From contig OZ024743.1 in NCBI GenBank assembly GCA_964016885.1, positions 311,426,001 through 311,490,000 of the forward strand: a DNA stretch of 64,000 nt. The letters are read 5' to 3'. The notes below the pieces were generated by a model, which saw nothing but the letters and a program-made list of their open reading frames with translations, was not told the origin of the DNA and did no database searches. Within the stretch, counting starts at the first letter, position 1. Each line of letters opens with the position of its first letter. Source of the stretch: Eledone cirrhosa. Its lineage: Eukaryota. Below, piece after piece: positions 1 through 57,288 of the stretch. The translations under genes were made by a program, and so were the position numbers.

Positions 1-3000
1 TAGAAGCACGCTGGGATTGTGTGGGAGTATCTGATAGGAGCGGGGGGTGCAAAAGCCTCAAGTACCTGATCAGCCAGTTTCAACTGTCTGACAGGTACCG
101 ACTAGATTTCCCTAATGCGCCAGTATGGACCTGGACCAATCGCATAGGGTCATCTAGATCGTACATAGATAGGATTTTCATTAGGAAAAGAGATAGAAAT
201 AGTGTAGGATGTCCACATTTTAAAACGGTTGCCTATTCAGATCACAAGCTTGTGATCTGTATGGTCGACCTAGATAAGACACGTAGGTTAGGACCTAGCT
301 ACTGGAAGCTAAACATGTCGTTTCCGGCACGTAAAGCTTACAGGGACCGGGTCAACAACTTAGTTAAGCAAAAGTTGACAGGGGGGGTTGTCAACAACAG
401 GTGGTGGGGGGCACTCAAAAGAGAGATTAGAGCAACCTCGATAGGATTTAGCAAAGAAGTAGCAATAGAGAAAAATAGAAAAGAGGAGGGGCTGATAGCT
501 AAGTTAGACGAGGCTATTTGTAGTGGCATTGCAACAGACGTGCTAGCGGCGAGAATGGCACTAGACCATTTCTTCAATGCGAAACACGAAGGTTGCATTG
601 TCAGAGCTAAGGCGCGTGCTCTGAGGAACGAGGGAACCAAAGCTGCCCGATGGGCTCGCTTTGCAGAGACGCAGCGTGGAAATAAAACCACAATTCGGTC
701 TTTGACGGATCGAGATGGACACGAACTGAGCGATTCCAAGCGGATGTGTGAGGCCTTTCGCCAGCACTTTGCTCGATTGTTCGGGAGGATGGGTGAGTCG
801 GAGACGGCGGCGGACTTCAGTCCCTACCTCGACGGCTTGCCACGCCTCTCGACGGCCGACGCTGAGCGCTGCGAAGAGCCGATAACATCAGCCGAAATTC
901 AGGACGCCCTTGTCGGCTGCTCGAGTCGCAAGTCACCCGGTTTGGATGGTCTGCCCTACGAGCTTTACGTAAATATGCCAGACTTGTTCTCCGATCTCCT
1001 CGAAGCGCTCTACTGCAACTGGCAGCAGAACGGGAGCATTCCCAGTTCTGTGAGCCGTGGCGTAGTGACGCTGATAAGGAAAGACGAGAACAAGAGGGAC
1101 ACACTAGATAATTTCAGGCCCATAACCCTGCTCAACACAGAGTTTAAGATTTTGGCCAAGGTGTTAGCGAAAAGGTTGGCGCTTGTCGTCAAAGATTTGG
1201 TTGGGGAGGCGCAAACTTGCGCAATCCCGACCAGGTCCATACACGACAACCTCCACCTCATGCGATACATCATAGAGAGGGTTGGGTGCAAACCTGGCTT
1301 CGGTGGGGCTCTGATCAATTTAGATCAATCGAAAGCATTCGATAGGGTCGACCATCGGTACTTGGAGGCTGTCCTCGAGGCGGCTGGCTTCGGCCCCGTC
1401 TTCAGAAGCTGGATCGCTGCAATGTACAGCGGCATCCGCTCGGTGGTCAAAGTTAATGGCCACCTCTCGGAACCGTTTCAGATCTCTCGATCGGTCCGTC
1501 AAGGGTGCCCTCTCTCCTCACTTCTGTACGTATTGACTCTTGAGCCTCTACTGCGGAAGCTGGAGTTGTTGCAGGGCATCCCGCTCGAACCGGGACGTAG
1601 AAAGGCTGCGTCCGCTTATGCGGACGACATCACCGTGATGGTGTCGGACACCTCGGAAATCGAGGTGATCCGCACCCATTTGGAGGAATATGAAAGGTTG
1701 ACGGGAGCAAAACTTAACCCGGAAAAGTCGGTGGGCTTGCAGCTCGGCACCTGGAGAGGCAAGTCCATGCCGTCCAACAGCGTCGTTGGGCGCTGGACAG
1801 ACGGACCGGTAAAGTTGCTCGGGGTTTGGTTCGGACCAGACCTCCAGGTGGATAAGAATTGGGACGAGGTGACGAGCAGGATAGCCAACCTCACCCAGAA
1901 ATGGGCTGAGAGAAAGCTATCACTGAAAGGGCGGGCGGAGGTGGCGAACGCGTACATCGCGTCCGTCATCTACTACCGCCTGACCGTCGTGCCTTGCCCC
2001 CGTCCACGCCTCGCCAATTTGGAACGGCTCCTTTTCAAATTTTTGTGGAGGGGACGGGTCCCGTTGGTGAGGCGGTCCATCTGCTGCCAGCACCCTCTTC
2101 GTGGAGGGCTGGGCATGCCGTGGCTAATGATGCGCAGACATGCGCTGAGGCTGCGACATCTCCAGATATTTTGCCTAAACGGTGAACAGGTGTGGTCGCC
2201 GTTTGTTAGACGGGCCTTTCCGCAGCTCATCTCTTTGACTGAGCTGCAGTCCTGGGTCAAGAAGAGACCGAGACTGGGCGACTGGCATCTGGAATGTTGC
2301 CAGGCGCTCACTGCACTCTGCAAGGTGGGCAATGCGGTCAGTGGAACTTCCACTCAAGATTTCTATAGAGGATTAGTGGAGGGCAAGTGCGATGACGTAC
2401 TAGGAGAGGCTCTGGGCGTCAACGAAGTAGAACTGACCAGTATGTTCCGGAGGACTTTCGAGCCGGGGACGATGGATAACTTCCAGAAATCCCTCGCTTG
2501 GCAGTGCTACCGGGGGGCGCTGCCGGTTCGGGATAAACTCTACAGGCACGGAAGTGCTGTCAGACGAACCTGCCCGAGATGCGCGCAGAGCGACGAAACC
2601 GTTCTGCACGCACTCGTCCAGTGTCCGTGCATTGCTGACTTGTGGGGTTATGTCGAACAGCTATTGTCGCGTGTAGAACGGATCCGGCTATCGTCCGAGT
2701 CCATAGTGAAGATTGACCCGCCGCCTTCTTTTGGTCAGGAAGGGCAGGCAATTTTCCTCTGCCTGGTGGCAGTAGCGAAAGAGGTTGCATGGTGGACCAG
2801 GTTGAAAGGACTGAAGACAGACACTTTTCTCTTCGGCCAATCCCTCATCAACTTCTTCAAGTTTCACTTGGAAAGGAAGGTGAGGGTGGAGAGAGAAGTG
2901 CTGCCCCCCAGTACATTTACTGAAAGGTGGGTGAATGTGGCGAGAATGGCCCGCGTGAGTGGGCCTACTCTGATCATGCGCCTGTAGGCTGGTGAATTCG

Positions 3001-3257
3001 AGAAGGAGAGGGGTGCCCTTCCCGGGTGCCCTAGGAGCGTCGGGTGGCTCAGGACTGGTGGGGTGCTTGAGTCAACCCTGGGTGGTGATCCCTCTTATTG
3101 GGGAACTTTCATTGTTGTATTTTTATTGTTATTTTGTTTTTTGTTATTTATACTTACTCGATCTCTATGTAAACCCCCACTGTCCCTGTCTATTGTGTTG
3201 TCCCCTATATGTCGGCCCTTGTGGCCAATAAATGAAATCATTATTATTATTATTATT
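1..3257 (+). mobile_element. Tx1/L1-clade non-LTR retrotransposon, array copy 1 (5' part outside window)
   Basis: Near-identical to the 3' part of copies 2-4; ends AATAAATGAAATC(ATT)6. Confidence 0.95.
3..2987 (+). CDS. ORF2 polyprotein (partial): endonuclease C-terminal half, reverse transcriptase, CCHC finger
   Basis: Motifs IDRIF, SDH, WKLN, PGLDG, FRPITLLN, DQSKAFDRVDH, VRQGCPLS, YADD, CPRC-x8-H-x4-C; frame open from the window edge. Confidence 0.95.
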   Translation, partial: EARWDCVGVSDRSGGCKSLKYLISQFQLSDRYRLDFPNAPVWTWTNRIGSSRSYIDRIFIRKRDRNSVGCPHFKTVAYSDHKLVICMVDLDKTRRLGPSYWKLNMSFPARKAYRDRVNNLVKQKLTGGVVNNRWWGALKREIRATSIGFSKEVAIEKNRKEEGLIAKLDEAICSGIATDVLAARMALDHFFNAKHEGCIVRAKARALRNEGTKAARWARFAETQRGNKTTIRSLTDRDGHELSDSKRMCEAFRQHFARLFGRMGESETAADFSPYLDGLPRLSTADAERCEEPITSAEIQDALVGCSSRKSPGLDGLPYELYVNMPDLFSDLLEALYCNWQQNGSIPSSVSRGVVTLIRKDENKRDTLDNFRPITLLNTEFKILAKVLAKRLALVVKDLVGEAQTCAIPTRSIHDNLHLMRYIIERVGCKPGFGGALINLDQSKAFDRVDHRYLEAVLEAAGFGPVFRSWIAAMYSGIRSVVKVNGHLSEPFQISRSVRQGCPLSSLLYVLTLEPLLRKLELLQGIPLEPGRRKAASAYADDITVMVSDTSEIEVIRTHLEEYERLTGAKLNPEKSVGLQLGTWRGKSMPSNSVVGRWTDGPVKLLGVWFGPDLQVDKNWDEVTSRIANLTQKWAERKLSLKGRAEVANAYIASVIYYRLTVVPCPRPRLANLERLLFKFLWRGRVPLVRRSICCQHPLRGGLGMPWLMMRRHALRLRHLQIFCLNGEQVWSPFVRRAFPQLISLTELQSWVKKRPRLGDWHLECCQALTALCKVGNAVSGTSTQDFYRGLVEGKCDDVLGEALGVNEVELTSMFRRTFEPGTMDNFQKSLAWQCYRGALPVRDKLYRHGSAVRRTCPRCAQSDETVLHALVQCPCIADLWGYVEQLLSRVERIRLSSESIVKIDPPPSFGQEGQAIFLCLVAVAKEVAWWTRLKGLKTDTFLFGQSLINFFKFHLERKVRVEREVLPPSTFTERWVNVARMARVSGPTLIMRL

Positions 3258-3466
3258 GACGAAAGTGGATGTACGTTTTTTGAAGCTCCGTGAGTAAGCA
3301 ATTTTTGAGGATTAATTGTAGAGAATTGTTTATTTTTTGTACCGCTGAAGCATTATAAGACATTAATTTGTATCCTGTGAAGGAATAACTCATAATATTT
3401 GGGCCTTTTGGCCCAAATATTTGAACTTTATTTTGAAAAAAATAATAATTTTTTTCTCAAAAAAAC

Positions 3467-5377
3467 ATGGCGGAGCCACGCCCCCTAGAGGCGGGTCTGC
3501 TGTCGTGCAACGGCGACTTGAGCGTTGAGAGGAGAGGTGAGGCGAGGAGCGCCACCAGCACGAATGTGAGCAGCGACAGTGCCAGCACCAACGGGCCGAG
3601 CGGCGCGGAAGGTGGTAACAGCGACAACACCAACACCAACAAGCCGAACAGCGCAGAAGGTGGTAATAGCGAGAGCACCAACAAAACGAACAGCACAGAG
3701 AGTAATAGTAGCGACAGCAGCAGCACCAACAAGGCCAACAGCACAGAAGGTAACCACGACACAGGGGAGAACAACAACAGCAATAGCAGCAGCAACACCA
3801 ACAAGAACAACAACAGTGACAACACCAACAAGAACACTTTCGCTGCTGTGGCAGCGGCTAAAAGGAGACCATGCTACAGCATCGACTTAACCAACAGAGA
3901 GGAAAAGTTGGCCCAGGCCTGGAAAATCATAAATCAAGAGCAGACCTGGGCAAACTTAACTGTCCCGGCAGAAGCCATTGAGGCAGTGGAAAAAAGAACG
4001 GTGCATTTCAGATGCATCTCAGTAGAGACAAAGAGGGCAGCGATAATCGCCCAAGCTGACATAGAAGCCGCACTGAAATACATCAGAGAGGACACAGACT
4101 TCATAGAGAGGGGCAGGCAATACGGCACCGTTTCGGTGCTGTTCAAGTCTGAAGCCCTCGCTGTGAAGCATTCAGTGACCCCTTGCAAAACCAGCAAGGT
4201 CATAATGTACCCCTCCCACATGGGAAAACGAATAGCACGTGTGCGCATTCCCAGGATTCCACCAGGACTTGATATGTGGTGGCTCCTGGGTTGCGTAATC
4301 GTGGAAGGAACGGATACAGTCCCGGTAGAGGCAACGAGAACTGCCAGGGACGACTGGTCCGGGGTTGATCTGGAGATACTGCTCCAAATCAGACCCGAAA
4401 ACGTGAAAGCAATCCCGGACCACATCCGCCTCCAAAACGGGAGGGTGTTGCATATAATGACTGAGGGCAAAAGGCCGCATTGTTTCCTTTGTGGGGAAAC
4501 GACACACTTGCGAGCCTTCTGCCCTCAACTGCCGAAAAGCGCAAGGGGTCGAAAGATTCCACTGCTGGCGACGCCGGGACAAGGACCACCAGCAACACCG
4601 TCAACAATGGAACCACCAAAATTGCACACCCAGGGGGGAAACGAGGAAAGCTCTCCCATTCCCCCTCCCCCCCAAAATACACACACGAACAAGAACATAA
4701 ACACTCACTCAGACACAAACACGCTCACAGCCACAGACCCCTCATCCTCCAGCAGTGAAGATGAGGGAAAACCAAAGTCCCCCAAAATACAAAAAACAAA
4801 ACACAAAAAAAAAAGAAATCCACAAAGCACAAACACCCCCACAAAACAAAATACACACACCACCCACACAAACATTTTCCCCACAGCATCACCAACACAA
4901 CCACCAAAATCCCCCAAACGCAAACAAGCTAAACAGACACAAGAACAAATAGACACACAAACATCAGAAACTACAGACACCCCACCCACAACAAACGCAG
5001 ACACAATAGAAACAACACTAACAAAGCTATCACCACCACAATCACACGAACAAATAAAACCCGAGCAACAAAACATTAAAAACTTCGTGCTTGCCAGAAG
5101 GGCCAACAAGGAATTGATGGCCCATGTAGCACGAAGCACAAACATCGAAAAAGACGGGGAAACATTTGAAGCGAGCACATTTCGCGTACCAGATAATTTG
5201 CTTCTGATGCGAATGTCGCTCGCTTCATACAAAGAAATTCGAAAGAGCTTTCCTCGGGATGTGGGAACCCCGAACGTAAAACCCACGTCAAGACTATTAA
5301 AGGGGTTCCCAAAAGAAACCCCACAAACCATGGAGGTCGAACCACCCGACCTTCACAAGACCCCGGAAGGTAAGTAA
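3467..5377 (+). CDS. ORF1 (gag-like nucleic-acid-binding protein), 636 aa
   Basis: Position upstream of ORF2; TFAAVAAA motif after N/S/T-rich N-terminus; zinc knuckle CFLCGETTHLRAFC (C-x2-C-x4-H-x4-C); low-complexity C-terminal linker. Confidence 0.92.
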   Translation: MAEPRPLEAGLLSCNGDLSVERRGEARSATSTNVSSDSASTNGPSGAEGGNSDNTNTNKPNSAEGGNSESTNKTNSTESNSSDSSSTNKANSTEGNHDTGENNNSNSSSNTNKNNNSDNTNKNTFAAVAAAKRRPCYSIDLTNREEKLAQAWKIINQEQTWANLTVPAEAIEAVEKRTVHFRCISVETKRAAIIAQADIEAALKYIREDTDFIERGRQYGTVSVLFKSEALAVKHSVTPCKTSKVIMYPSHMGKRIARVRIPRIPPGLDMWWLLGCVIVEGTDTVPVEATRTARDDWSGVDLEILLQIRPENVKAIPDHIRLQNGRVLHIMTEGKRPHCFLCGETTHLRAFCPQLPKSARGRKIPLLATPGQGPPATPSTMEPPKLHTQGGNEESSPIPPPPQNTHTNKNINTHSDTNTLTATDPSSSSSEDEGKPKSPKIQKTKHKKKRNPQSTNTPTKQNTHTTHTNIFPTASPTQPPKSPKRKQAKQTQEQIDTQTSETTDTPPTTNADTIETTLTKLSPPQSHEQIKPEQQNIKNFVLARRANKELMAHVARSTNIEKDGETFEASTFRVPDNLLLMRMSLASYKEIRKSFPRDVGTPNVKPTSRLLKGFPKETPQTMEVEPPDLHKTPEGK

Positions 5378-5406
5378 ACCTTTCCTCTCCCATTCATCCT
5401 GCCAGC

Positions 5407-8400
5407 ATGGCCATAAGAGTAGGAAGTTTAAATGTTCGTGGCCTGGGGTCGCCCTGGAAGCAAGGTCACTTGCTCAACGACCTCAGGTCACTAGGAATGG
5501 ATGTAATTGCCATCAGCGAGACCAGAATTTCCGACACACGCGCACTGGCGCCGATTTTCGACGATTATCAGATCTTTGCATCTGTTAGTCGGCCGGGAAT
5601 GGGAGGTGGAGTGGCTGTGCTGTTTAGGAAATGTCTGGATCTCGAGGTAAGGTCAATCTTCCGGGATCCTGACGGAAAGTTGGTGGTCCTGGACGTAAGC
5701 AATAGCGAAGGTGGTGCCTTTAGACTGGTGGCCGTCTACGCCCCTACTGGGGCCGGTCGGCCGGACTTCTTTAGGCGCCTGGAAAACTTTCTGCTTACGT
5801 CTCGCCCTTTACTGTTAATAGGGGATTGGAATGGCATCTTAGAAGCACGCTGGGATTGTGTGGGAGTATCTGATAGGAGCGGGGGGTGCAAAAGCCTCAA
5901 GTACCTGATCAGCCAGTTTCAACTGTCTGACAGGTACCGACTAGATTTCCCTAATGCGCCAGTATGGACCTGGACCAATCGCATAGGGTCATCTAGATCG
6001 TACATAGATAGGATTTTCATTAGGAAAAGAGATAGAAATAGTGTAGGATGTCCACATTTTAAAACGGTTGCCTATTCAGATCACAAGCTTGTGATCTGTA
6101 TGGTCGACCTAGATAAGACACGTAGGTTAGGACCTAGCTACTGGAAGCTAAACATGTCGTTTCCGGCACGTAAAGCTTACAGGGACCGGGTCAACAACTT
6201 AGTTAAGCAAAAGTTGACAGGGGGGGTTGTCAACAACAGGTGGTGGGGGGCACTCAAAAGAGAGATTAGAGCAACCTCGATAGGATTTAGCAAAGAAGTA
6301 GCAATAGAGAAAAATAGAAAAGAGGAGGGGCTGATAGCTAAGTTAGACGAGGCTATTTGTAGTGGCATTGCAACAGACGTGCTAGCGGCGAGAATGGCAC
6401 TAGACCATTTCTTCAATGCGAAACACGAAGGTTGCATTGTCAGAGCTAAGGCGCGTGCTCTGAGGAACGAGGGAACCAAAGCTGCCCGATGGGCTCGCTT
6501 TGCAGAGACGCAGCGTGGAAATAAAACCACAATTCGGTCTTTGACGGATCGAGATGGACACGAACTGAGCGATTCCAAGCGGATGTGTGAGGCCTTTCGC
6601 CAGCACTTTGCTCGATTGTTCGGGAGGATGGGTGAGTCGGAGACGGCGGCGGACTTCAGTCCCTACCTCGACGGCTTGCCACGCCTCTCGACGGCCGACG
6701 CTGAGCGCTGCGAAGAGCCGATAACATCAGCCGAAATTCAGGACGCCCTTGTCGGCTGCTCGAGTCGCAAGTCACCCGGTTTGGATGGTCTGCCCTACGA
6801 GCTTTACGTAAATATGCCAGACTTGTTCTCCGATCTCCTCGAAGCGCTCTACTGCAACTGGCAGCAGAACGGGAGCATTCCCAGTTCTGTGAGCCGTGGC
6901 GTAGTGACGCTGATAAGGAAAGACGAGAACAAGAGGGACACACTAGATAATTTCAGGCCCATAACCCTGCTCAACACAGAGTTTAAGATTTTGGCCAAGG
7001 TGTTAGCGAAAAGGTTGGCGCTTGTCGTCAAAGATTTGGTTGGGGAGGCGCAAACTTGCGCAATCCCGACCAGGTCCATACACGACAACCTCCACCTCAT
7101 GCGATACATCATAGAGAGGGTTGGGTGCAAACCTGGCTTCGGTGGGGCTCTGATCAATTTAGATCAATCGAAAGCATTCGATAGGGTCGACCATCGGTAC
7201 TTGGAGGCTGTCCTCGAGGCGGCTGGCTTCGGCCCCGTCTTCAGAAGCTGGATCGCTGCAATGTACAGCGGCATCCGCTCGGTGGTCAAAGTTAATGGCC
7301 ACTTCTCGGAACCGTTTCAGATCTCTCGATCGGTCCGTCAAGGGTGCCCTCTCTCCTCACTTCTGTACGTATTGACTCTTGAGCCTCTACTGCGGAAGCT
7401 GGAGTTGTTGCAGGGCATCCCGCTCGAACCGGGACGTAGAAAGGCTGCGTCCGCTTATGCGGACGACATCACCGTGATGGTGTCGGACACCTCGGAAATC
7501 GAGGTGATCCGCACCCATTTGGAGGAATATGAAAGGTTGACGGGAGCAAAACTTAACCCGGAAAAGTCGGTGGGCTTGCAGCTCGGCACCTGGAGAGGCA
7601 AGTCCATGCCGTCCAACAGCGTCGTTGGGCGCTGGACAGACGGACCGGTAAAGTTGCTCGGGGTTTGGTTCGGACCAGACCTCCAGGTGGATAAGAATTG
7701 GGACGAGGTGACGAGCAGGATAGCCAACCTCACCCAGAAATGGGCTGAGAGAAAGCTATCACTGAAAGGGCGGGCGGAGGTGGCGAACGCGTACATCGCG
7801 TCCGTCATCTACTACCGCCTGACCGTCGTGCCTTGCCCCCGTCCACGCCTCGCCAATTTGGAACGGCTCCTTTTCAAATCTTTGTGGAGGGGACGGGTCC
7901 CGTTGGTGAGGCGGTCCATCTGCTGCCAGCACCCTCTTCGTGGAGGGCTGGGCATGCCGTGGCTAATGATGCGCAGACATGCGCTGAGGCTGCGACATCT
8001 CCAGATATTTTGCCTAAACGGTGAACAGGTGTGGTCGCCGTTTGTTAGACGGGCCTTTCCGCAGCTCATCTCTTTGACTGAGCTGCAGTCCTGGGTCAAG
8101 AAGAGACCGAGACTGGGCGACTGGCATCTGGAATGTTGCCAGGCGCTCACTGCACTCTGCAAGGTGGGCAATGCGGTCAGTGGAACTTCCACTCAAGATT
8201 TCTATAGAGGATTAGTGGAGGGCAAGTGCGATGACGTACTAGGAGAGGCTCTGGGCGTCAACGAAGTAGAACTGACCAGTATGTTCCGGAGGACTTTCGA
8301 GCCGGGGACGATGGATAACTTCCAGAAATCCCTCGCTTGGCAGTGCTACCGGGGGGCGCTGCCGGTTCGGGATAAACTCTACAGGCACGGAAGTGCTGTC

Positions 8401-8826
8401 AGACGAACCTGCCCGAGATGCGCGCAGAGCGACGAAACCGTTCTGCACGCACTCGTCCAGTGTCCGTGCATTGCTGACTTGTGGGGTTATGTCGAACAGC
8501 TATTGTCGCGTGTAGAACGGATCCGGCTATCGTCCGAGTCCATAGTGAAGATTGACCCGCCGCCTTCTTTTGGTCAGGAAGGGCAGGCAATTTTCCTCTG
8601 CCTGGTGGCAGTAGCGAAAGAGGTTGCATGGTGGACCAGGTTGAAAGGACTGAAGACAGACACTTTTCTCTTCGGCCAATCCCTCATCAACTTCTTCAAG
8701 TTTCACTTGGAAAGGAAGGTGAGGGTGGAGAGAGAAGTGCTGCCCCCCAGTACATTTACTGAAAGGTGGGTGAATGTGGCGAGAATGGCCCGCGTGAGTG
8801 GGCCTACTCTGATCATGCGCCTGTAG
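5407..8826 (+). CDS. ORF2: APE endonuclease + reverse transcriptase + CCHC finger, 1139 aa
   Basis: SLNVRG, SET, YAP, IGDWN, IDRIF, SDH (APE); KAFDRVDH, RQGCPLS, YADD (RT); GGLG motif and C-terminal CCHC typical of the L1/Tx1 clade. Confidence 0.97.
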   Translation: MAIRVGSLNVRGLGSPWKQGHLLNDLRSLGMDVIAISETRISDTRALAPIFDDYQIFASVSRPGMGGGVAVLFRKCLDLEVRSIFRDPDGKLVVLDVSNSEGGAFRLVAVYAPTGAGRPDFFRRLENFLLTSRPLLLIGDWNGILEARWDCVGVSDRSGGCKSLKYLISQFQLSDRYRLDFPNAPVWTWTNRIGSSRSYIDRIFIRKRDRNSVGCPHFKTVAYSDHKLVICMVDLDKTRRLGPSYWKLNMSFPARKAYRDRVNNLVKQKLTGGVVNNRWWGALKREIRATSIGFSKEVAIEKNRKEEGLIAKLDEAICSGIATDVLAARMALDHFFNAKHEGCIVRAKARALRNEGTKAARWARFAETQRGNKTTIRSLTDRDGHELSDSKRMCEAFRQHFARLFGRMGESETAADFSPYLDGLPRLSTADAERCEEPITSAEIQDALVGCSSRKSPGLDGLPYELYVNMPDLFSDLLEALYCNWQQNGSIPSSVSRGVVTLIRKDENKRDTLDNFRPITLLNTEFKILAKVLAKRLALVVKDLVGEAQTCAIPTRSIHDNLHLMRYIIERVGCKPGFGGALINLDQSKAFDRVDHRYLEAVLEAAGFGPVFRSWIAAMYSGIRSVVKVNGHFSEPFQISRSVRQGCPLSSLLYVLTLEPLLRKLELLQGIPLEPGRRKAASAYADDITVMVSDTSEIEVIRTHLEEYERLTGAKLNPEKSVGLQLGTWRGKSMPSNSVVGRWTDGPVKLLGVWFGPDLQVDKNWDEVTSRIANLTQKWAERKLSLKGRAEVANAYIASVIYYRLTVVPCPRPRLANLERLLFKSLWRGRVPLVRRSICCQHPLRGGLGMPWLMMRRHALRLRHLQIFCLNGEQVWSPFVRRAFPQLISLTELQSWVKKRPRLGDWHLECCQALTALCKVGNAVSGTSTQDFYRGLVEGKCDDVLGEALGVNEVELTSMFRRTFEPGTMDNFQKSLAWQCYRGALPVRDKLYRHGSAVRRTCPRCAQSDETVLHALVQCPCIADLWGYVEQLLSRVERIRLSSESIVKIDPPPSFGQEGQAIFLCLVAVAKEVAWWTRLKGLKTDTFLFGQSLINFFKFHLERKVRVEREVLPPSTFTERWVNVARMARVSGPTLIMRL

Positions 8827-9306
8827 GCTGGTGAATTCGAGAAGGAGAGGGGTGCCCTTCCCGGGTGCCCTAGGAGCGTCGGGTGGCTCAGGACTGGTGG
8901 GGTGCTTGAGTCAACCCTGGGTGGTGATCCCTCTTATTGGGGAACTTTCATTGTTGTATTTTTATTGTTATTTTGTCTTTTTGTTATTTATACTTACTCG
9001 ATCTCTATGTAAACCCCCACTGTCCCTGTCTATTGTGTTGTCCCCTATATGTCGGCCCTTGTGGCCAATAAATGAAATCATTATTATTATTATTATTGAC
9101 GAAAGTGGATGTACGTTTTTTGAAGCTCCGTGAGTAAGCAATTTTTGAGGATTAATTGTAGAGAATTGTTTATTTTTTGTACCGCTGAAGCATTATAAGA
9201 CATTAATTTGTATCCTGTGAAGGAATAACTCATAATATTTGGGCCTTTTGGCCCAAATATTTGAACTTTATTTTGAAAAAAATAATAATTTTTTTCTCAA
9301 AAAAAC

Positions 9307-11217
9307 ATGGCGGAGCCACGCCCCCTAGAGGCGGGTCTGCTGTCGTGCAACGGCGACTTGAGCGTTGAGAGGAGAGGTGAGGCGAGGAGCGCCACCAGCA
9401 CGAATGTGAGCAGCGACAGTGCCAGCACCAACGGGCCGAGCGGCGCGGAAGGTGGTAACAGCGACAACACCAACACCAACAAGCCGAACAGCGCAGAAGG
9501 TGGTAATAGCGAGAGCACCAACAAAACGAACAGCACAGAGAGTAATAGTAGCGACAGCAGCAGCACCAACAAGGCCAACAGCACAGAAGGTAACCACGAC
9601 ACAGGGGAGAACAACAACAGCAATAGCAGCAGCAACACCAACAAGAACAACAACAGTGACAACACCAACAAGAACACTTTCGCTGCTGTGGCAGCGGCTA
9701 AAAGGAGACCATGCTACAGCATCGACTTAACCAACAGAGAGGAAAAGTTGGCCCAGGCCTGGAAAATCATAAATCAAGAGCAGACCTGGGCAAACTTAAC
9801 TGTCCCGGCAGAAGCCATTGAGGCAGTGGAAAAAAGAACGGTGCATTTCAGATGCATCTCAGTAGAGACAAAGAGGGCAGCGATAATCGCCCAAGCTGAC
9901 ATAGAAGCCGCACTGAAATACATCAGAGAGGACACAGACTTCATAGAGAGGGGCAGGCAATACGGCACCGTTTCGGTGCTGTTCAAGTCTGAAGCCCTCG
10001 CTGTGAAGCATTCAGTGACCCCTTGCAAAACCAGCAAGGTCATAATGTACCCCTCCCACATGGGAAAACGAATAGCACGTGTGCGCATTCCCAGGATTCC
10101 ACCAGGACTTGATATGTGGTGGCTCCTGGGTTGCGTAATCGTGGAAGGAACGGATACAGTCCCGGTAGAGGCAACGAGAACTGCCAGGGACGACTGGTCC
10201 GGGGTTGATCTGGAGATACTGCTCCAAATCAGACCCGAAAACGTGAAAGCAATCCCGGACCACATCCGCCTCCAAAACGGGAGGGTGTTGCATATAATGA
10301 CTGAGGGCAAAAGGCCGCATTGTTTCCTTTGTGGGGAAACGACACACTTGCGAGCCTTCTGCCCTCAACTGCCGAAAAGCGCAAGGGGTCGAAAGATTCC
10401 ACTGCTGGCGACGCCGGGACAAGGACCACCAGCAACACCGTCAACAATGGAACCACCAAAATTGCACACCCAGGGGGGAAACGAGGAAAGCTCTCCCATT
10501 CCCCCTCCCCCCCAAAATACACACACGAACAAGAACATAAACACTCACTCAGACACAAACACGCTCACAGCCACAGACCCCTCATCCTCCAGCAGTGAAG
10601 ATGAGGGAAAACCAAAGTCCCCCAAAATACAAAAAACAAAACACAAAAAAAAAAGAAATCCACAAAGCACAAACACCCCCACAAAACAAAATACACACAC
10701 CACCCACACAAACATTTTCCCCACAGCATCACCAACACAACCACCAAAATCCCCCAAACGCAAACAAGCTAAACAGACACAAGAACAAATAGACACACAA
10801 ACATCAGAAACTACAGACACCCCACCCACAACAAACGCAGACACAATAGAAACAACACTAACAAAGCTATCACCACCACAATCACACGAACAAATAAAAC
10901 CCGAGCAACAAAACATTAAAAACTTCGTGCTTGCCAGAAGGGCCAACAAGGAATTGATGGCCCATGTAGCACGTAGCACAAACATCGAAAAAGACGGGGA
11001 AACATTTGAAGCGAGCACATTTCGCGTACCAGATAATTTGCTTCTGATGCGAATGTCGCTCGCTTCATACAAAGAAATTCGAAAGAGCTTTCCTCGGGAT
11101 GTGGGAACCCCGAACGTAAAACCCACGTCAAGACTATTAAAGGGGTTCCCAAAAGAAACCCCACAAACCATGGAGGTCGAACCACCCGACCTTCACAAGA
11201 CCCCGGAAGGTAAGTAA
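9307..11217 (+). CDS. ORF1, copy 3
   Basis: Same protein as 3467..5377. Confidence 0.92.
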   Translation: MAEPRPLEAGLLSCNGDLSVERRGEARSATSTNVSSDSASTNGPSGAEGGNSDNTNTNKPNSAEGGNSESTNKTNSTESNSSDSSSTNKANSTEGNHDTGENNNSNSSSNTNKNNNSDNTNKNTFAAVAAAKRRPCYSIDLTNREEKLAQAWKIINQEQTWANLTVPAEAIEAVEKRTVHFRCISVETKRAAIIAQADIEAALKYIREDTDFIERGRQYGTVSVLFKSEALAVKHSVTPCKTSKVIMYPSHMGKRIARVRIPRIPPGLDMWWLLGCVIVEGTDTVPVEATRTARDDWSGVDLEILLQIRPENVKAIPDHIRLQNGRVLHIMTEGKRPHCFLCGETTHLRAFCPQLPKSARGRKIPLLATPGQGPPATPSTMEPPKLHTQGGNEESSPIPPPPQNTHTNKNINTHSDTNTLTATDPSSSSSEDEGKPKSPKIQKTKHKKKRNPQSTNTPTKQNTHTTHTNIFPTASPTQPPKSPKRKQAKQTQEQIDTQTSETTDTPPTTNADTIETTLTKLSPPQSHEQIKPEQQNIKNFVLARRANKELMAHVARSTNIEKDGETFEASTFRVPDNLLLMRMSLASYKEIRKSFPRDVGTPNVKPTSRLLKGFPKETPQTMEVEPPDLHKTPEGK

Positions 11218-11246
11218 ACCTTTCCTCTCCCATTCATCCTGCCAGC

Positions 11247-14200
11247 ATGGCCATAAGAGTAGGAAGTTTAAATGTTCGTGGCCTGGGGTCGCCCTGGAAG
11301 CAAGGTCACTTGCTCAACGACCTCAGGTCACTAGGAATGGATGTAATTGCCATCAGCGAGACCAGAATTTCCGACACACGCGCACTGGCGCCGATTTTCG
11401 ACGATTATCAGATCTTTGCATCTGTTAGTCGGCCGGGAATGGGAGGTGGAGTGGCTGTGCTGTTTAGGAAATGTCTGGATCTCGAGGTAAGGTCAATCTT
11501 CCGGGATCCTGACGGAAAGTTGGTGGTCCTGGACGTGAGCAATAGCGAAGGTGGTGCCTTTAGACTGGTGGCCGTCTACGCCCCTACTGGGGCCGGTCGG
11601 CCGGACTTCTTTAGGCGCCTGGAAAACTTTCTGCTTACGTCTCGCCCTTTACTGTTAATAGGGGATTGGAATGGCATCTTAGAAGCACGCTGGGATTGTG
11701 TGGGAGTATCTGATAGGAGCGGGGGGTGCAAAAGCCTCAAGTACCTGATCAGCCAGTTTCAACTGTCTGACAGGTACCGACTAGATTTCCCTAATGCGCC
11801 AGTATGGACCTGGACCAATCGCATAGGGTCATCTAGATCGTACATAGATAGGATTTTCATTAGGAAAAGAGATAGAAATAGTGTAGGATGTCCACATTTT
11901 AAAACGGTTGCCTATTCAGATCACAAGCTTGTGATCTGTATGGTCGACCTAGATAAGACACGTAGGTTAGGACCTAGCTACTGGAAGCTAAACATGTCGT
12001 TTCCGGCACGTAAAGCTTACAGGGACCGGGTCAACAACTTAGTTAAGCAAAAGTTGACAGGGGGGGTTGTCAACAACAGGTGGTGGGGGGCACTCAAAAG
12101 AGAGATTAGAGCAACCTCGATAGGATTTAGCAAAGAAGTAGCAATAGAGAAAAATAGAAAAGAGGAGGGGCTGATAGCTAAGTTAGACGAGGCTATTTGT
12201 AGTGGCATTGCAACAGACGTGCTAGCGGCGAGAATGGCACTAGACCATTTCTTCAATGCGAAACACGAAGGTTGCATTGTCAGAGCTAAGGCGCGTGCTC
12301 TGAGGAACGAGGGAACCAAAGCTGCCCGATGGGCTCGCTTTGCAGAGACGCAGCGTGGAAATAAAACCACAATTCGGTCTTTGACGGATCGAGATGGACA
12401 CGAACTGAGCGATTCCAAGCGGATGTGTGAGGCCTTTCGCCAGCACTTTGCTCGATTGTTCGGGAGGATGGGTGAGTCGGAGACGGCGGCGGACTTCAGT
12501 CCCTACCTCGACGGCTTGCCACGCCTCTCGACGGCCGACGCTGAGCGCTGCGAAGAGCCGATAACATCAGCCGAAATTCAGGACGCCCTTGTCGGCTGCT
12601 CGAGTCGCAAGTCACCCGGTTTGGATGGTCTGCCCTACGAGCTTTACGTAAATATGCCAGACTTGTTCTCCGATCTCCTCGAAGCGCTCTACTGCAACTG
12701 GCAGCAGAACGGGAGCATTCCCAGTTCTGTGAGCCGTGGCGTAGTGACGCTGATAAGGAAAGACGAGAACAAGAGGGACACACTAGATAATTTCAGGCCC
12801 ATAACCCTGCTCAACACAGAGTTTAAGATTTTGGCCAAGGTGTTAGCGAAAAGGTTGGCGCTTGTCGTCAAAGATTTGGTTGGGGAGGCGCAAACTTGCG
12901 CAATCCCGACCAGGTCCATACACGACAACCTCCACCTCATGCGATACATCATAGAGAGGGTTGGGTGCAAACCTGGCTTCGGTGGGGCTCTGATCAATTT
13001 AGATCAATCGAAAGCATTCGATAGGGTCGACCATCGGTACTTGGAGGCTGTCCTCGAGGCGGCTGGCTTCGGCCCCGTCTTCAGAAGCTGGATCGCTGCA
13101 ATGTACAGCGGCATCCGCTCGGTGGTCAAAGTTAATGGCCACTTCTCGGAACCGTTTCAGATCTCTCGATCGGTCCGTCAAGGGTGCCCTCTCTCCTCAC
13201 TTCTGTACGTATTGACTCTTGAGCCTCTACTGCGGAAGCTGGAGTTGTTGCAGGGCATCCCGCTCGAACCGGGACGTAGAAAGGCTGCGTCCGCTTATGC
13301 GGACGACATCACCGTGATGGTGTCGGACACCTCGGAAATCGAGGTGATCCGCACCCATTTGGAGGAATATGAAAGGTTGACGGGAGCAAAACTTAACCCG
13401 GAAAAGTCGGTGGGCTTGCAGCTCGGCACCTGGAGAGGCAAGTCCATGCCGTCCAACAGCGTCGTTGGGCGCTGGACAGACGGACCGGTAAAGTTGCTCG
13501 GGGTTTGGTTCGGACCAGACCTCCAGGTGGATAAGAATTGGGACGAGGTGACGAGCAGGATAGCCAACCTCACCCAGAAATGGGCTGAGAGAAAGCTATC
13601 ACTGAAAGGGCGGGCGGAGGTGGCGAACGCGTACATCGCGTCCGTCATCTACTACCGCCTGACCGTCGTGCCTTGCCCCCGTCCACGCCTCGCCAATTTG
13701 GAACGGCTCCTTTTCAAATCTTTGTGGAGGGGACGGGTCCCGTTGGTGAGGCGGTCCATCTGCTGCCAGCACCCTCTTCGTGGAGGGCTGGGCATGCCGT
13801 GGCTAATGATGCGCAGACATGCGCTGAGGCTGCGACATCTCCAGATATTTTGCCTAAACGGTGAACAGGTGTGGTCGCCGTTTGTTAGACGGGCCTTTCC
13901 GCAGCTCATCTCTTTGACTGAGCTGCAGTCCTGGGTCAAGAAGAGACCGAGACTGGGCGACTGGCATCTGGAATGTTGCCAGGCGCTCACTGCACTCTGC
14001 AAGGTGGGCAATGCGGTCAGTGGAACTTCCACTCAAGATTTCTATAGAGGATTAGTGGAGGGCAAGTGCGATGACGTACTAGGAGAGGCTCTGGGCGTCA
14101 ACGAAGTAGAACTGACCAGTATGTTCCGGAGGACTTTCGAGCCGGGGACGATGGATAACTTCCAGAAATCCCTCGCTTGGCAGTGCTACCGGGGGGCGCT

Positions 14201-14666
14201 GCCGGTTCGGGATAAACTCTACAGGCACGGAAGTGCTGTCAGACGAACCTGCCCGAGATGCGCGCAGAGCGACGAAACCGTTCTGCACGCACTCGTCCAG
14301 TGTCCGTGCATTGCTGACTTGTGGGGTTATGTCGAACAGCTATTGTCGCGTGTAGAACGGATCCGGCTATCGTCCGAGTCCATAGTGAAGATTGACCCGC
14401 CGCCTTCTTTTGGTCAGGAAGGGCAGGCAATTTTCCTCTGCCTGGTGGCAGTAGCGAAAGAGGTTGCATGGTGGACCAGGTTGAAAGGACTGAAGACAGA
14501 CACTTTTCTCTTCGGCCAATCCCTCATCAACTTCTTCAAGTTTCACTTGGAAAGGAAGGTGAGGGTGGAGAGAGAAGTGCTGCCCCCCAGTACATTTACT
14601 GAAAGGTGGGTGAATGTGGCGAGAATGGCCCGCGTGAGTGGGCCTACTCTGATCATGCGCCTGTAG
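11247..14666 (+). CDS. ORF2 (EN-RT), copy 3
   Basis: Intact 1139 aa, same motifs. Confidence 0.97.
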   Translation: MAIRVGSLNVRGLGSPWKQGHLLNDLRSLGMDVIAISETRISDTRALAPIFDDYQIFASVSRPGMGGGVAVLFRKCLDLEVRSIFRDPDGKLVVLDVSNSEGGAFRLVAVYAPTGAGRPDFFRRLENFLLTSRPLLLIGDWNGILEARWDCVGVSDRSGGCKSLKYLISQFQLSDRYRLDFPNAPVWTWTNRIGSSRSYIDRIFIRKRDRNSVGCPHFKTVAYSDHKLVICMVDLDKTRRLGPSYWKLNMSFPARKAYRDRVNNLVKQKLTGGVVNNRWWGALKREIRATSIGFSKEVAIEKNRKEEGLIAKLDEAICSGIATDVLAARMALDHFFNAKHEGCIVRAKARALRNEGTKAARWARFAETQRGNKTTIRSLTDRDGHELSDSKRMCEAFRQHFARLFGRMGESETAADFSPYLDGLPRLSTADAERCEEPITSAEIQDALVGCSSRKSPGLDGLPYELYVNMPDLFSDLLEALYCNWQQNGSIPSSVSRGVVTLIRKDENKRDTLDNFRPITLLNTEFKILAKVLAKRLALVVKDLVGEAQTCAIPTRSIHDNLHLMRYIIERVGCKPGFGGALINLDQSKAFDRVDHRYLEAVLEAAGFGPVFRSWIAAMYSGIRSVVKVNGHFSEPFQISRSVRQGCPLSSLLYVLTLEPLLRKLELLQGIPLEPGRRKAASAYADDITVMVSDTSEIEVIRTHLEEYERLTGAKLNPEKSVGLQLGTWRGKSMPSNSVVGRWTDGPVKLLGVWFGPDLQVDKNWDEVTSRIANLTQKWAERKLSLKGRAEVANAYIASVIYYRLTVVPCPRPRLANLERLLFKSLWRGRVPLVRRSICCQHPLRGGLGMPWLMMRRHALRLRHLQIFCLNGEQVWSPFVRRAFPQLISLTELQSWVKKRPRLGDWHLECCQALTALCKVGNAVSGTSTQDFYRGLVEGKCDDVLGEALGVNEVELTSMFRRTFEPGTMDNFQKSLAWQCYRGALPVRDKLYRHGSAVRRTCPRCAQSDETVLHALVQCPCIADLWGYVEQLLSRVERIRLSSESIVKIDPPPSFGQEGQAIFLCLVAVAKEVAWWTRLKGLKTDTFLFGQSLINFFKFHLERKVRVEREVLPPSTFTERWVNVARMARVSGPTLIMRL

Positions 14667-15146
14667 GCTGGTGAATTCGAGAAGGAGAGGGGTGCCCTTC
14701 CCGGGTGCCCTAGGAGCGTCGGGTGGCTCAGGACTGGTGGGGTGCTTGAGTCAACCCTGGGTGGTGATCCCTCTTATTGGGGAACTTTCATTGTTGTATT
14801 TTTATTGTTATTTTGTCTTTTTGTTATTTATACTTACTCGATCTCTATGTAAACCCCCACTGTCCCTGTCTATTGTGTTGTCCCCTATATGTCGGCCCTT
14901 GTGGCCAATAAATGAAATCATTATTATTATTATTATTGACGAAAGTGGATGTACGTTTTTTGAAGCTCCGTGAGTAAGCAATTTTTGAGGATTAATTGTA
15001 GAGAATTGTTTATTTTTTGTACCGCTGAAGCATTATAAGACATTAATTTGTATCCTGTGAAGGAATAACTCATAATATTTGGGCCTTTTGGCCCAAATAT
15101 TTGAACTTTATTTTGAAAAAAATAATAATTTTTTTCTCAAAAAAAC

Positions 15147-17057
15147 ATGGCGGAGCCACGCCCCCTAGAGGCGGGTCTGCTGTCGTGCAACGGCGACTTG
15201 AGCGTTGAGAGGAGAGGTGAGGCGAGGAGCGCCACCAGCACGAATGTGAGCAGCGACAGTGCCAGCACCAACGGGCCGAGCGGCGCGGAAGGTGGTAACA
15301 GCGACAACACCAACACCAACAAGCCGAACAGCGCAGAAGGTGGTAATAGCGAGAGCACCAACAAAACGAACAGCACAGAGAGTAATAGTAGCGACAGCAG
15401 CAGCACCAACAAGGCCAACAGCACAGAAGGTAACCACGACACAGGGGAGAACAACAACAGCAATAGCAGCAGCAACACCAACAAGAACAACAACAGTGAC
15501 AACACCAACAAGAACACTTTCGCTGCTGTGGCAGCGGCTAAAAGGAGACCATGCTACAGCATCGACTTAACCAACAGAGAGGAAAAGTTGGCCCAGGCCT
15601 GGAAAATCATAAATCAAGAGCAGACCTGGGCAAACTTAACTGTCCCGGCAGAAGCCATTGAGGCAGTGGAAAAAAGAACGGTGCATTTCAGATGCATCTC
15701 AGTAGAGACAAAGAGGGCAGCGATAATCGCCCAAGCTGACATAGAAGCCGCACTGAAATACATCAGAGAGGACACAGACTTCATAGAGAGGGGCAGGCAA
15801 TACGGCACCGTTTCGGTGCTGTTCAAGTCTGAAGCCCTCGCTGTGAAGCATTCAGTGACCCCTTGCAAAACCAGCAAGGTCATAATGTACCCCTCCCACA
15901 TGGGAAAACGAATAGCACGTGTGCGCATTCCCAGGATTCCACCAGGACTTGATATGTGGTGGCTCCTGGGTTGCGTAATCGTGGAAGGAACGGATACAGT
16001 CCCGGTAGAGGCAACGAGAACTGCCAGGGACGACTGGTCCGGGGTTGATCTGGAGATACTGCTCCAAATCAGACCCGAAAACGTGAAAGCAATCCCGGAC
16101 CACATCCGCCTCCAAAACGGGAGGGTGTTGCATATAATGACTGAGGGCAAAAGGCCGCATTGTTTCCTTTGTGGGGAAACGACACACTTGCGAGCCTTCT
16201 GCCCTCAACTGCCGAAAAGCGCAAGGGGTCGAAAGATTCCACTGCTGGCGACGCCGGGACAAGGACCACCAGCAACACCGTCAACAATGGAACCACCAAA
16301 ATTGCACACCCAGGGGGGAAACGAGGAAAGCTCTCCCATTCCCCCTCCCCCCCAAAATACACACACGAACAAGAACATAAACACTCACTCAGACACAAAC
16401 ACGCTCACAGCCACAGACCCCTCATCCTCCAGCAGTGAAGATGAGGGAAAACCAAAGTCCCCCAAAATACAAAAAACAAAACACAAAAAAAAAAGAAATC
16501 CACAAAGCACAAACACCCCCACAAAACAAAATACACACACCACCCACACAAACATTTTCCCCACAGCATCACCAACACAACCACCAAAATCCCCCAAACG
16601 CAAACAAGCTAAACAGACACAAGAACAAATAGACACACAAACATCAGAAACTACAGACACCCCACCCACAACAAACGCAGACACAATAGAAACAACACTA
16701 ACAAAGCTATCACCACCACAATCACACGAACAAATAAAACCCGAGCAACAAAACATTAAAAACTTCGTGCTTGCCAGAAGGGCCAACAAGGAATTGATGG
16801 CCCATGTAGCACGAAGCACAAACATCGAAAAAGACGGGGAAACATTTGAAGCGAGCACATTTCGCGTACCAGATAATTTGCTTCTGATGCGAATGTCGCT
16901 CGCTTCATACAAAGAAATTCGAAAGAGCTTTCCTCGGGATGTGGGAACCCCGAACGTAAAACCCACGTCAAGACTATTAAAGGGGTTCCCAAAAGAAACC
17001 CCACAAACCATGGAGGTCGAACCACCCGACCTTCACAAGACCCCGGAAGGTAAGTAA
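15147..17057 (+). CDS. ORF1, copy 4
   Basis: Same protein as copies 2 and 3. Confidence 0.92.
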   Translation: MAEPRPLEAGLLSCNGDLSVERRGEARSATSTNVSSDSASTNGPSGAEGGNSDNTNTNKPNSAEGGNSESTNKTNSTESNSSDSSSTNKANSTEGNHDTGENNNSNSSSNTNKNNNSDNTNKNTFAAVAAAKRRPCYSIDLTNREEKLAQAWKIINQEQTWANLTVPAEAIEAVEKRTVHFRCISVETKRAAIIAQADIEAALKYIREDTDFIERGRQYGTVSVLFKSEALAVKHSVTPCKTSKVIMYPSHMGKRIARVRIPRIPPGLDMWWLLGCVIVEGTDTVPVEATRTARDDWSGVDLEILLQIRPENVKAIPDHIRLQNGRVLHIMTEGKRPHCFLCGETTHLRAFCPQLPKSARGRKIPLLATPGQGPPATPSTMEPPKLHTQGGNEESSPIPPPPQNTHTNKNINTHSDTNTLTATDPSSSSSEDEGKPKSPKIQKTKHKKKRNPQSTNTPTKQNTHTTHTNIFPTASPTQPPKSPKRKQAKQTQEQIDTQTSETTDTPPTTNADTIETTLTKLSPPQSHEQIKPEQQNIKNFVLARRANKELMAHVARSTNIEKDGETFEASTFRVPDNLLLMRMSLASYKEIRKSFPRDVGTPNVKPTSRLLKGFPKETPQTMEVEPPDLHKTPEGK

Positions 17058-57197: not shown

Positions 57198-57288
<91 letters not shown>

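What the first reader, a model, noticed from the sequence alone, without database searches (positions are those of the whole stretch)
3210..3257. Tx1 element and the dominant SINE share a 3' stem-loop and (ATT)n tail
Seen: LINE end GGCC-CTTGT-GGCC-AATAAATGAAATC(ATT)n; SINE family A end TGGC-CTTGT-GCCA-ATAGTAGAAACA(ATT)n (minus strand at ~57030-57092; similar at 21638, 46486, 49001). Both have the loop CTTGT on a GC stem with the same spacing to GAAA and an ATT tail. Known: shared 3' stem-loops define stringent LINE-SINE pairs (L2, CR1, RTE), whereas mammalian L1 recognises poly(A). Inference: this may be a stringent-type Tx1 LINE mobilising a major tRNA-SINE, whose ATT tails in turn seed new LINE target sites.
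Basis: partly seen in the sequence, partly recalled or inferred. Interest (0 to 1): 0.75.

Follow-up and report, generated by a model that had tools for sequence, protein, structure and literature searches.

The report
LINE and SINE share hairpin-ATT tail
A young jumping gene (LINE) that sits in head-to-tail arrays and lands in ATT repeats ends in a tiny hairpin plus an ATT tail, and a very abundant short repeat (SINE) carries a similar tail and makes the same kind of insertion scars, so the SINE is likely copied by LINEs of this group; this is a new example of a known kind of partnership.

Summary
Window 3214-3257 is the 3' end of an intact L1/Tx1-type LINE, GGCC-CTTGT-GGCC-AATAAATGAAATC-(ATT)6. 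It recurs every 5840 bp in a head-to-tail array.

An abundant SINE (about 210 hits per Mb) ends TGGC-CTTGT-GCC[A/T]-AAAGTA-GAAACA-ATTATT. The tail similarity is modest but above background: z about 4, and higher than about 670 other ATT-preceding sequences.

Independent support:
- A sister LINE family keeps the hairpin through two double compensatory changes (AACC/GGTT).
- All 30 full-length LINE 5' ends examined abut (ATT)n.
- SINE duplications of 8-20 bp start at ATTATT directly after the tail. Truncated LINE copies make the same kind.
- SINEs sit just behind LINE tails about 24 times more often than expected.
- Three LINE/SINE chimaeric copies exist.

Against: no LINE family carries the exact SINE tail, and no SINE subfamily carries the LINE stem. 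The SINE copies are older than these LINE copies, and the hairpin is not thermodynamically exceptional. Tx1 placement and the tRNA origin of the SINE head were not confirmed.

Verdict: a likely LINE-SINE partnership in an ATT-targeting LINE group, which is a new member of a known kind. Recognition through the hairpin is inferred.

The parts
1..3257 (+). LINE family A, copy 1 of the array (5' part cut by the window start); ORF2 to 2987, 3' UTR 2988-3239
3214..3226 (+). 3' hairpin GGCC-CTTGT-GGCC (4-bp stem, 5-nt loop)
   Evidence: in the MFE fold; covariation across families
3227..3239 (+). A-rich spacer AATAAATGAAATC
3240..3257 (+). (ATT)6 tail, which is also the junction to the next LINE copy
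3258..9097 (+). Full-length LINE copy 2: 5' UTR 3258-3466, ORF1 3467-5377 (636 aa, one CCHC knuckle), ORF2 5407-8826 (1139 aa; endonuclease + RT + zf-RVT), 3' UTR and tail to 9097
9098..14937 (+). Full-length LINE copy 3, both ORFs intact; 2 mismatches to copy 2 in 5840 nt
14938..20783 (+). Full-length LINE copy 4, both ORFs intact; ends in (ATT)8 followed by degenerate GTT/ATT units
3401..3414 (+). 5' UTR hairpin GGGCC-TTTT-GGCCC followed by AAATATTTGAAC; resembles the 3' module
   Evidence: homologous GGGC-CTTGT-GCCC in the 5' UTR of another LINE family
62390..64000 (-). 3' part of a LINE copy of subfamily A2 (different upstream 3' UTR, identical last 26 nt, long ATT tail)
21482..21669 (+). 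SINE copy; tail hairpin TGGC-CTTGT-GCCA at 21638-21650
24426..24616 (-). SINE copy flanked by ATT repeats on both sides
38323..38508 (-). SINE copy
46337..46515 (+). SINE copy
48645..49036 (+). Two SINE copies head to tail; the second is inserted at the tail of the first
57030..57200 (-).

Best explanation
Window 3214-3257 is the 3' end of an intact, young, L1-like LINE that ends in a 4-bp hairpin with a CUUGU loop, an A-rich spacer and an (ATT)n tail and that lies in ATT repeats, and the abundant SINE, which carries a similar tail, is likely copied in trans by LINEs of this group.

Shown:
- The anatomy of the LINE and the SINE.
- The array of near-identical LINE copies.
- The ATT context of all full-length LINE copies examined.
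- The SINE's target-site duplications, which start at ATTATT.
- The covariation in the hairpin stem.
- The nesting of SINEs in LINE tails, and the chimaeric copies.

Inferred mechanism. The endonuclease nicks the bottom strand after AATAAT (top strand C|ATTATT). The freed 3' end pairs with the AUU repeats at the end of the RNA. The reverse transcriptase, held on the RNA by the hairpin and spacer, starts there. SINE RNA would offer the same hairpin, spacer and AUU end and would be taken instead. Every new copy brings a new ATT tail, which would be the next landing site. That would explain the LINE arrays, the SINE dimers and the SINEs found behind LINE tails.
For: LINE identity and youth.
- ORF2 has Exo_endo_phos, RVT_1 and zf-RVT domains.
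- The best solved relative is human LINE-1 ORF2p (E 6e-56).
- Three complete copies in the window have both ORFs open and differ by 2-6 of 5840 nt.
- The genome holds 1168 exact copies of the 31-nt tail and 316 exact 5' ends, in arrays of up to 10 units.

Target.
- 30 of 30 full-length 5' ends examined are preceded by (ATT)2-17, and 29 of 30 by four or more units.

The hairpin is under selection.
- Sister family B (ORF2 75% identical; 3672 exact tails) has AACC-CTTGT-GGTT. Four of its five substitutions in the last 32 nt are the two compensatory pairs.
- Over 11 family-level tails, 84% of cells pair and 3 of 4 pairs change on both sides. The covariation score is 0.364 against 0.186 +/- 0.064 in shuffles (4 of 500 as high), and slid controls reach 0.209 at most.

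SINE tail.
- It has the same loop, the same closing C:G pair, GAAA at the spacing of family B, and ATT.
- Its alignment score is above shuffles and above about 670 empirical controls.

Same insertion signature.
- In 431 kb of random genome, 13 of 29 full-length SINEs have an exact duplication of 8-20 bp that starts within 2 nt of GAAACA, against a null mean of 1.8.
- In all sequence held, 36 of 110 do, and 30 of those 36 begin ATTATT. The base before the duplication is C in 20 of 36 and G in none.
- Truncated LINE A/B copies show the same type, for example ATTATTAGTAGTAGTAT, ATTATAGAAATGCAGA and ATTATTAATAAGAAG.

Nesting.
- 7 of 50 LINE tails have a SINE starting within 40 nt, against 0.29 expected.
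- SINE-SINE tandems occur.

Chimaeric copies.
- Two LINE 3' UTRs switch to the SINE-type 3' arm and spacer at the shared CCTTGTG. In each, 12 of the 13 nt after the search pattern match the SINE.
- One SINE body is joined to the last 62 nt of the LINE A2 UTR plus an ATT tail, with no SINE remainder behind it.

Precedent.
- Kojima 2015 (PMC4494074; abstract and sections 15-16 read) infers mobilisation of SINEU by Tx1-Mar from shared target preference.
Against: - No LINE family with the exact SINE tail was found. LINE-UTR contexts with the SINE-type stem gave 32 hits, mostly point mutants of family A, and a tighter pattern gave 3.
- A genome-wide scan for the SINE-short tail outside SINE context gave 1903 hits. 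The first 100 listed, and 25 of the 30 loci fetched, are SINE variants; the other 5 are truncated SINEs or a duplicated locus. The same held for the long tail.
- No SINE subfamily carries the LINE-type stem (17 hits).
- Identity between the LINE A tail and the SINE tail is modest, and family B scores within the empirical background.
- SINE copies are 84-95% identical to one another, while LINE A copies are nearly identical. Family A as the driver of most SINE copies is therefore unlikely; an older relative is needed.
- The hairpin is only 4 bp. Fold energies are not better than shuffles (z -0.4 to +0.2), and the MFE fold of the SINE copy uses another pairing.
- Full-length LINEs lie in long (ATT)n, whereas most SINEs lie at short ATTATT sites.
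- The duplication count for truncated LINEs (9 of 37) is only just above its null (mean 5, maximum 8), because ATT-only matches inflate the null.
- Only 0.43 Mb of random genome plus LINE flanks was surveyed for other LINE families.
Confidence: 0.65

Rival explanations
1. Tail-only ('relaxed') copying. LINEs of this group copy the SINE, but only the terminal AUU repeats and their pairing with an ATT target matter. The hairpin is kept for another reason, such as RNA 3'-end formation or stability, ORF1p packaging, or a role shared with the similar 5' UTR hairpin.
For: - The duplications start exactly at ATTATT, so tail-target pairing is clearly used.
- The SINE stem sequence differs from every LINE stem.
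- The hairpin is thermodynamically unremarkable.
- A hairpin of the same type sits in LINE 5' UTRs, which a pure 3'-end recognition role does not explain.
Against: - The loop CTTGT, the closing C:G pair and GAAA are invariant across 11 LINE and SINE tail types, while the stem covaries.
- The SINE kept the module over several subfamilies.
Confidence: 0.25
2. A different LINE drives the SINE. This would be an ATT-tailed LINE of another clade that was not sampled here, and the likeness to this LINE group would be convergent or a relic.
For: - No exact tail match exists within the group.
- There is an age gap between the SINE copies and LINE A/B.
- The survey of LINE families was partial.
Against: - Of 714 sequences preceding (ATT)>=2 in the random sample, only SINE copies and LINEs of this group resemble the tail.
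- The other LINE seen at ATT microsatellites lies on the opposite strand, ends in (AAT)n and scores -8.
- The scans outside SINE context found no recurrent LINE context.
- The chimaeric copies join the SINE to this LINE group specifically.
Confidence: 0.12
3. There is no functional link. Two unrelated repeats happen to end in a short GC hairpin and ATT repeats in a genome rich in AT microsatellites.
Against: - The score exceeds all non-SINE controls.
- The duplication type is the same.
- Nesting is enriched 24-fold.
- Chimaeric copies exist.
Confidence: 0.05

Closest known systems
Stringent LINE-SINE pairs of the L2 clade (eel UnaL2/UnaSINE1, zebrafish ZfL2; PMC4176376, abstract seen in the search listing only; the eel details are recalled)
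   Same: The SINE's 3' end resembles the LINE's 3' end. There is a small stem-loop just upstream of short terminal repeats, and the repeats are used to start reverse transcription.
   Different: The LINE here is L1-like, not L2. The stem is only 4 bp. The tail repeat is ATT and doubles as the genomic target. Nothing has been tested experimentally here.
Monocot L1 lineage (LINE1-1_ZM) with maize and sorghum SINEs (Ohshima 2012 PMC3472496, abstract in listing; review PMC3747384, passages read)
   Same: An L1-clade LINE lineage has a conserved, structured 3' end that partner SINEs also carry. This is an L1-type LINE that does not rely on poly(A) alone.
   Different: Animal host, ATT tail rather than poly(A), microsatellite targeting and head-to-tail arrays.
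Tx1-Mar LINEs and SINEU in crocodilians (Kojima 2015, PMC4494074; abstract and sections 15-16 read)
   Same: An L1/Tx1-type, target-specific LINE is inferred to mobilise a SINE because both share a target preference.
   Different: There the target is a Mariner transposon, and the elements share snRNA-derived 5' heads. Here the shared part is the 3' hairpin and tail, and the target is ATT repeats.
Microsatellite-specific Tx1 families: Kibi (TC)n, Koshi (TTC)n, crocodilian (TTCC)n/(TTTC)n families (as cited in PMC4494074, introduction and section 15)
   Same: APE-type LINEs that insert into a microsatellite matching their own tail repeat and build arrays.
   Different: The repeat unit here is ATT. 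Short ATTATT sites are also used. A high-copy partner SINE is attached. Clade membership was not tested here.

Membership tests
LINE-SINE pair with shared 3' tail (stringent type) | The SINE 3' end is homologous to the LINE 3' end, above background | tested here: met
   z about 4 against shuffles for LINE A. LINE A scores above about 670 empirical controls. There are 17 invariant columns out of 34 across 11 tail types. The identity itself is modest.
LINE-SINE pair with shared 3' tail (stringent type) | Same terminal repeat on LINE and SINE | tested here: met
   (ATT)n on both
LINE-SINE pair with shared 3' tail (stringent type) | A conserved stem-loop supported by compensatory changes | tested here: met
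   A GGCC/GGCC, B AACC/GGTT, SINE TGGC/GCCA. 3 of 4 pairs change on both sides, and 4 of 500 shuffles score as high. The folding energy is not exceptional.
LINE-SINE pair with shared 3' tail (stringent type) | Same target-site and duplication signature | tested here: met
   SINE: 13 of 29 against a null of 1.8, and 30 of 36 duplications begin ATTATT. LINE: individual 12-17-bp duplications that begin ATTATT, although the LINE count is only just above its null.
LINE-SINE pair with shared 3' tail (stringent type) | Trans-mobilisation that depends on the stem-loop | not testable with these tools
   Needs a retrotransposition assay with loop, stem and compensatory mutants
Tx1 clade of L1-like LINEs | APE endonuclease + RT + C-terminal zinc motif; L1-like ORF2 | tested here: met
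   Pfam Exo_endo_phos, RVT_1 and zf-RVT. The best PDB match is human LINE-1 ORF2p, E 6e-56. These features do not separate Tx1 from L1.
Tx1 clade of L1-like LINEs | Placement inside Tx1 in an RT phylogeny with named reference elements | not tested
   None of the 91 homologues carries a transposon-family name; the few names given are generic or unrelated. The clusters looked up have no names and the atlas clusters have no taxa. No reference sequences were at hand.
Tx1 clade of L1-like LINEs | Target-specific insertion | tested here: met
   30 of 30 full-length 5' ends lie behind (ATT)n. Truncated copies also use short ATTATT sites.
tRNA-derived SINE | Head recognisable as a tRNA | tested here: not met
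   ARAGORN finds no tRNA in 21000-62000. Rfam finds nothing in 48600-49100 at E up to 1. Box-A-like TGGCAGTATCGG and box-B-like GAGTTCAAATCC are seen by eye against a recalled consensus only.
tRNA-derived SINE | Short, non-coding, high-copy, flanked by target-site duplications | tested here: met
   About 190 bp long. 91 hits in 431 kb. 7480 exact copies of a 45-nt tail stretch. Duplications.

The most novel reading that the evidence does not exclude
The 4-bp CUUGU hairpin, a 10-11-nt A-rich spacer and AUU repeats are the whole recognition-and-priming module of an L1-type LINE group. The same hairpin in the 5' UTR lets the LINE protein hold both RNA ends. Because every copy deposits its own landing site, LINEs and their SINE build self-extending arrays, so one retrotransposon group both makes and targets a microsatellite.
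Probability: 0.3. Interest if true: 0.6.

Novelty: new member of a known kind. Interest (0 to 1): 0.45.

Why it matters
It would add an animal example of an L1-type LINE that chooses its RNA by a structured tail rather than by poly(A). The recognition element would be unusually small and easy to mutate. The pair also has a clean genomic read-out, because duplications start at ATTATT. The system is large: several thousand young LINE copies and several hundred thousand SINE copies. That makes it a practical case for studying template choice, tail-target pairing, and how retrotransposons create and reuse microsatellites.

Tried and rejected
- LINE family with the exact SINE tail: not found (scans outside SINE context 56/57 and 86/87). 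The recurrent extra context proved to be another SINE-like family with the same head and tail but a different middle.
- SINE subfamily with the LINE-type stem: 17 sporadic hits only.
- An older LINE lineage around locus L051 (ORF2 54-60% identical to family A, many stops). The DNA search found no closer relatives than 70-77% identity, and only 40 of 3885 candidates were scored. Whether L051 is an old lineage or a chimaera stays open.
- An apparent second non-autonomous family with GGGC-CTTGT-GCCC turned out to be the 5' UTR of another LINE family.
- Folding energy as evidence for the hairpin: z between -0.4 and +0.2, so it was dropped.
- tRNA origin of the SINE head: ARAGORN and Rfam found nothing.
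- Naming the clade or the host from homologues: no transposon-family names and no taxa.
- Cross-species test of the hairpin: a metagenome scan with a 39%-identical homologue returned no confirmed locus. The genome has no relatives in the genome collection (header).
- Literature:
  - Three motifs from the SINE and one from the LINE hairpin gave one unrelated paper.
  - Tx1 + ATT + microsatellite + retrotransposon + tandem gave 0 papers. On those two searches, an ATT-targeting Tx1/L1 with a partner SINE was not found in print. Subscription papers and Repbase are not covered.
- Earlier notes of this scan report the same hairpin elsewhere in this genome and in another genome. They were used as leads only.

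Full report
What is at the coordinates

Window 3210-3257 is the end of a LINE. The sequence reads GGCC-CTTGT-GGCC (3214-3226), then AATAAATGAAATC (3227-3239), then (ATT)6 (3240-3257). The next LINE copy starts at 3258. The same 26-mer recurs at 9054, 14894 and 20734, so the window opens with a head-to-tail array of period 5840 bp. A fifth copy lies on the minus strand at 62423-62448. Its 3' UTR differs further upstream, but its last 26 nt are identical.

The three complete copies each have an open ORF1 (636 aa, one CCHC knuckle) and an open ORF2 (1139 aa from ATG). They differ by only 2-6 of 5840 nt. ORF2 has endonuclease, reverse-transcriptase and zf-RVT domains. Its best solved relative is human LINE-1 ORF2p (E 6e-56). 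This makes it an L1-like LINE. Whether it belongs to the Tx1 branch could not be tested, because no homologue carries a transposon-family name.

The SINE

A repeat of about 190 bp occurs at 21482, 24616(-), 38508(-), 46337, 48645, 48836 and 57200(-). An older, longer subfamily is also present. Its commonest tails are listed here:
- short form: TGGC-CTTGT-GCC[A/T]-AAAGTA-GAAACA
- long form: ...GCCT-AAATYA or ATATAA-GAAACC

In 431 kb of randomly chosen genome plus the non-LINE part of the window there are 91 hits, about 210 per Mb. A 45-nt stretch of the tail has 7480 exact copies. ARAGORN and Rfam do not recognise a tRNA in the head. The A-box-like and B-box-like motifs were seen by eye only.

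Is the likeness more than chance?

The one correction concerns spacing. From the loop end to GAAA there are 11 nt in this LINE family and 10 nt in the SINE. Sister LINE families B and E have 10 nt.

An end-anchored alignment of the last 33 nt of the SINE to LINE A scores 8, against -4.4 +/- 3.0 for shuffles. Among 714 sequences that precede (ATT)>=2 in the random sample, every non-SINE sequence scores 5 or less. LINE A scores 8-9. An unrelated LINE end found at ATT microsatellites scores -8. The similarity is therefore real but modest, and family B alone would not stand out.

The LINE group and its hairpin

Searching the genome showed that family A is one of several related families:
- Family B has the tail AACC-CTTGT-GGTT-AATAAAGAAATC-(ATT)n. 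It has 3672 exact tails, arrays of about 6.05 kb, ORF2 75% identical and ORF1 35% identical to A.
- Other types are A3 (GGCC/GGCT), E (AGCC/GGCC), and one with GAAATT.

Between A and B, four of the five substitutions in the last 32 nt are the two compensatory pairs GG/CC to AA/TT.

I aligned 11 tail types, 7 from LINEs and 4 from SINEs. The loop, the closing C:G pair and GAAA are invariant. 84% of stem cells pair, and 3 of 4 pairs change on both sides. Only 4 of 500 shuffles reach the covariation score, and slid controls fall well below it. Folding energies are no better than shuffles, and the SINE copy's minimum-energy fold uses another pairing. The case for the hairpin therefore rests on covariation, not on stability.

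Target and insertion signature

All 30 full-length family-A 5' ends examined are directly preceded by (ATT)2-17. Of these:
- 12 lie behind another LINE tail of this group;
- 2-3 lie behind a SINE tail;
- the rest lie in plain microsatellite or other sequence.

Truncated LINE copies show duplications of 12-17 bp that begin ATTATT and run into unique sequence. Their overall count, 9 of 37, is only just above a null inflated by ATT-only matches.

The SINE signal is clear. In the unbiased sample, 13 of 29 full-length copies have an exact duplication of 8-20 bp starting within 2 nt of GAAACA, against a null mean of 1.8 and a maximum of 6. Over all sequence held, 36 of 110 do. Of those 36, 30 begin ATTATT, and the preceding base is C in 20 and never G.

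The ATT 'tail' of most SINE copies is thus part of the duplicated target. This fits priming by pairing between AUU repeats on the RNA and a nicked AAT end on the DNA; that mechanism is inferred.

Nesting and chimaeric copies

Seven of 50 LINE tails are followed within 40 nt by a same-strand SINE, against 0.29 expected. SINE-SINE tandems are common. This includes 48645-49036 in the window.

Three chimaeric copies were seen:
- Two LINE 3' UTRs (L051, L068) change to the SINE-type 3' arm and spacer at the shared CCTTGTG. Twelve of the 13 nt after the searched pattern match the SINE.
- One SINE body is joined to the last 62 nt of the LINE A2 UTR and an ATT tail, with no SINE remainder downstream.

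These fit template switching between the two RNAs on one reverse transcriptase. DNA recombination is not excluded, and the sample is only three.

What speaks against it

- No LINE family with the exact SINE tail was found.
- No SINE subfamily has the LINE-type stem.
- SINE copies are 84-95% alike, while LINE A copies are nearly identical. An older member of the group, rather than family A itself, would have made most SINE copies.
- Full-length LINEs lie in long ATT runs, whereas most SINEs lie at short ATTATT sites.

Comparison with what is known

LINE-SINE pairs that share a 3' tail are a textbook kind. Three precedents are close:
- A structured 3' end in an L1 lineage shared with SINEs is described for monocots (PMC3472496, abstract in listing; PMC3747384, passages read).
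- A Tx1 group is inferred to mobilise a SINE from shared target preference (PMC4494074; abstract and sections 15-16 read).
- Microsatellite-specific Tx1 families are cited in that same paper.

The present case combines these traits with an ATT repeat and a very small hairpin. Two literature searches found no ATT-targeting example. Earlier notes of this scan report the same hairpin in another part of this genome and in another genome. I confirmed the 5' UTR hairpin they mention but did not test the other genome.

Verdict

This is a likely LINE-SINE partnership, a new member of a known kind, and of moderate interest.

Noticed in passing
window 3401-3426; also 5' UTRs in L008, L036, L044, L085, L147, L164: The LINE 5' UTR holds a hairpin (family A: GGGCC-TTTT-GGCCC followed by AAATATTTGAAC; another family: GGGC-CTTGT/CTTGA-GCCC followed by AAAATTTAAAC). 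It resembles the 3' hairpin-plus-spacer module. Its function is unknown.
   Followed up: partly
window 3240-3257, 9080-9097, 14920-14937: All three internal junctions of the array have exactly (ATT)6, and the units differ by 2-6 nt. This array probably grew at least partly by duplication of units rather than only by separate insertions. Other arrays in the genome have variable spacing.
   Followed up: no
L001 1-1400 (+ strand); the same end in L018, L028, L029, L031, L032, L041, L046, L049: A different LINE (RT-like ORF) often lies on the opposite strand next to the same ATT microsatellites. It ends ...CAATGACTGAGATTCAAGGAATAA followed by (AAT)n-type repeats. It has no CTTGT hairpin and does not resemble the SINE tail.
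   Followed up: partly
window 20940-20990 and 56985-57030; L012, L022: A repeat containing GTGCAATGGCCATACTCGATAACGAGGGGGCAGCCATCA follows T-rich or ATT-type runs in several places. Read on the other strand, it would be a retroposon end with an A-rich tail.
   Followed up: no
window 28440-29053 and 29722-32312: Very long (TA)n tracts, the larger about 2.6 kb. They explain the stop-free 'ORFs' in all six frames there.
   Followed up: yes
L258 (G000 C1:195.8 Mb) and about 9 similar rows: Another SINE-like family has the same head and the same hairpin/ATT tail but a different, longer middle part.
   Followed up: partly
L005, L009, L010, L039, L050: Some LINE tails pass after one or two ATT units into (CTT)n or (ACT)n runs. 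Related trinucleotide repeats may also be used as targets, or may arise from the tails.
   Followed up: no
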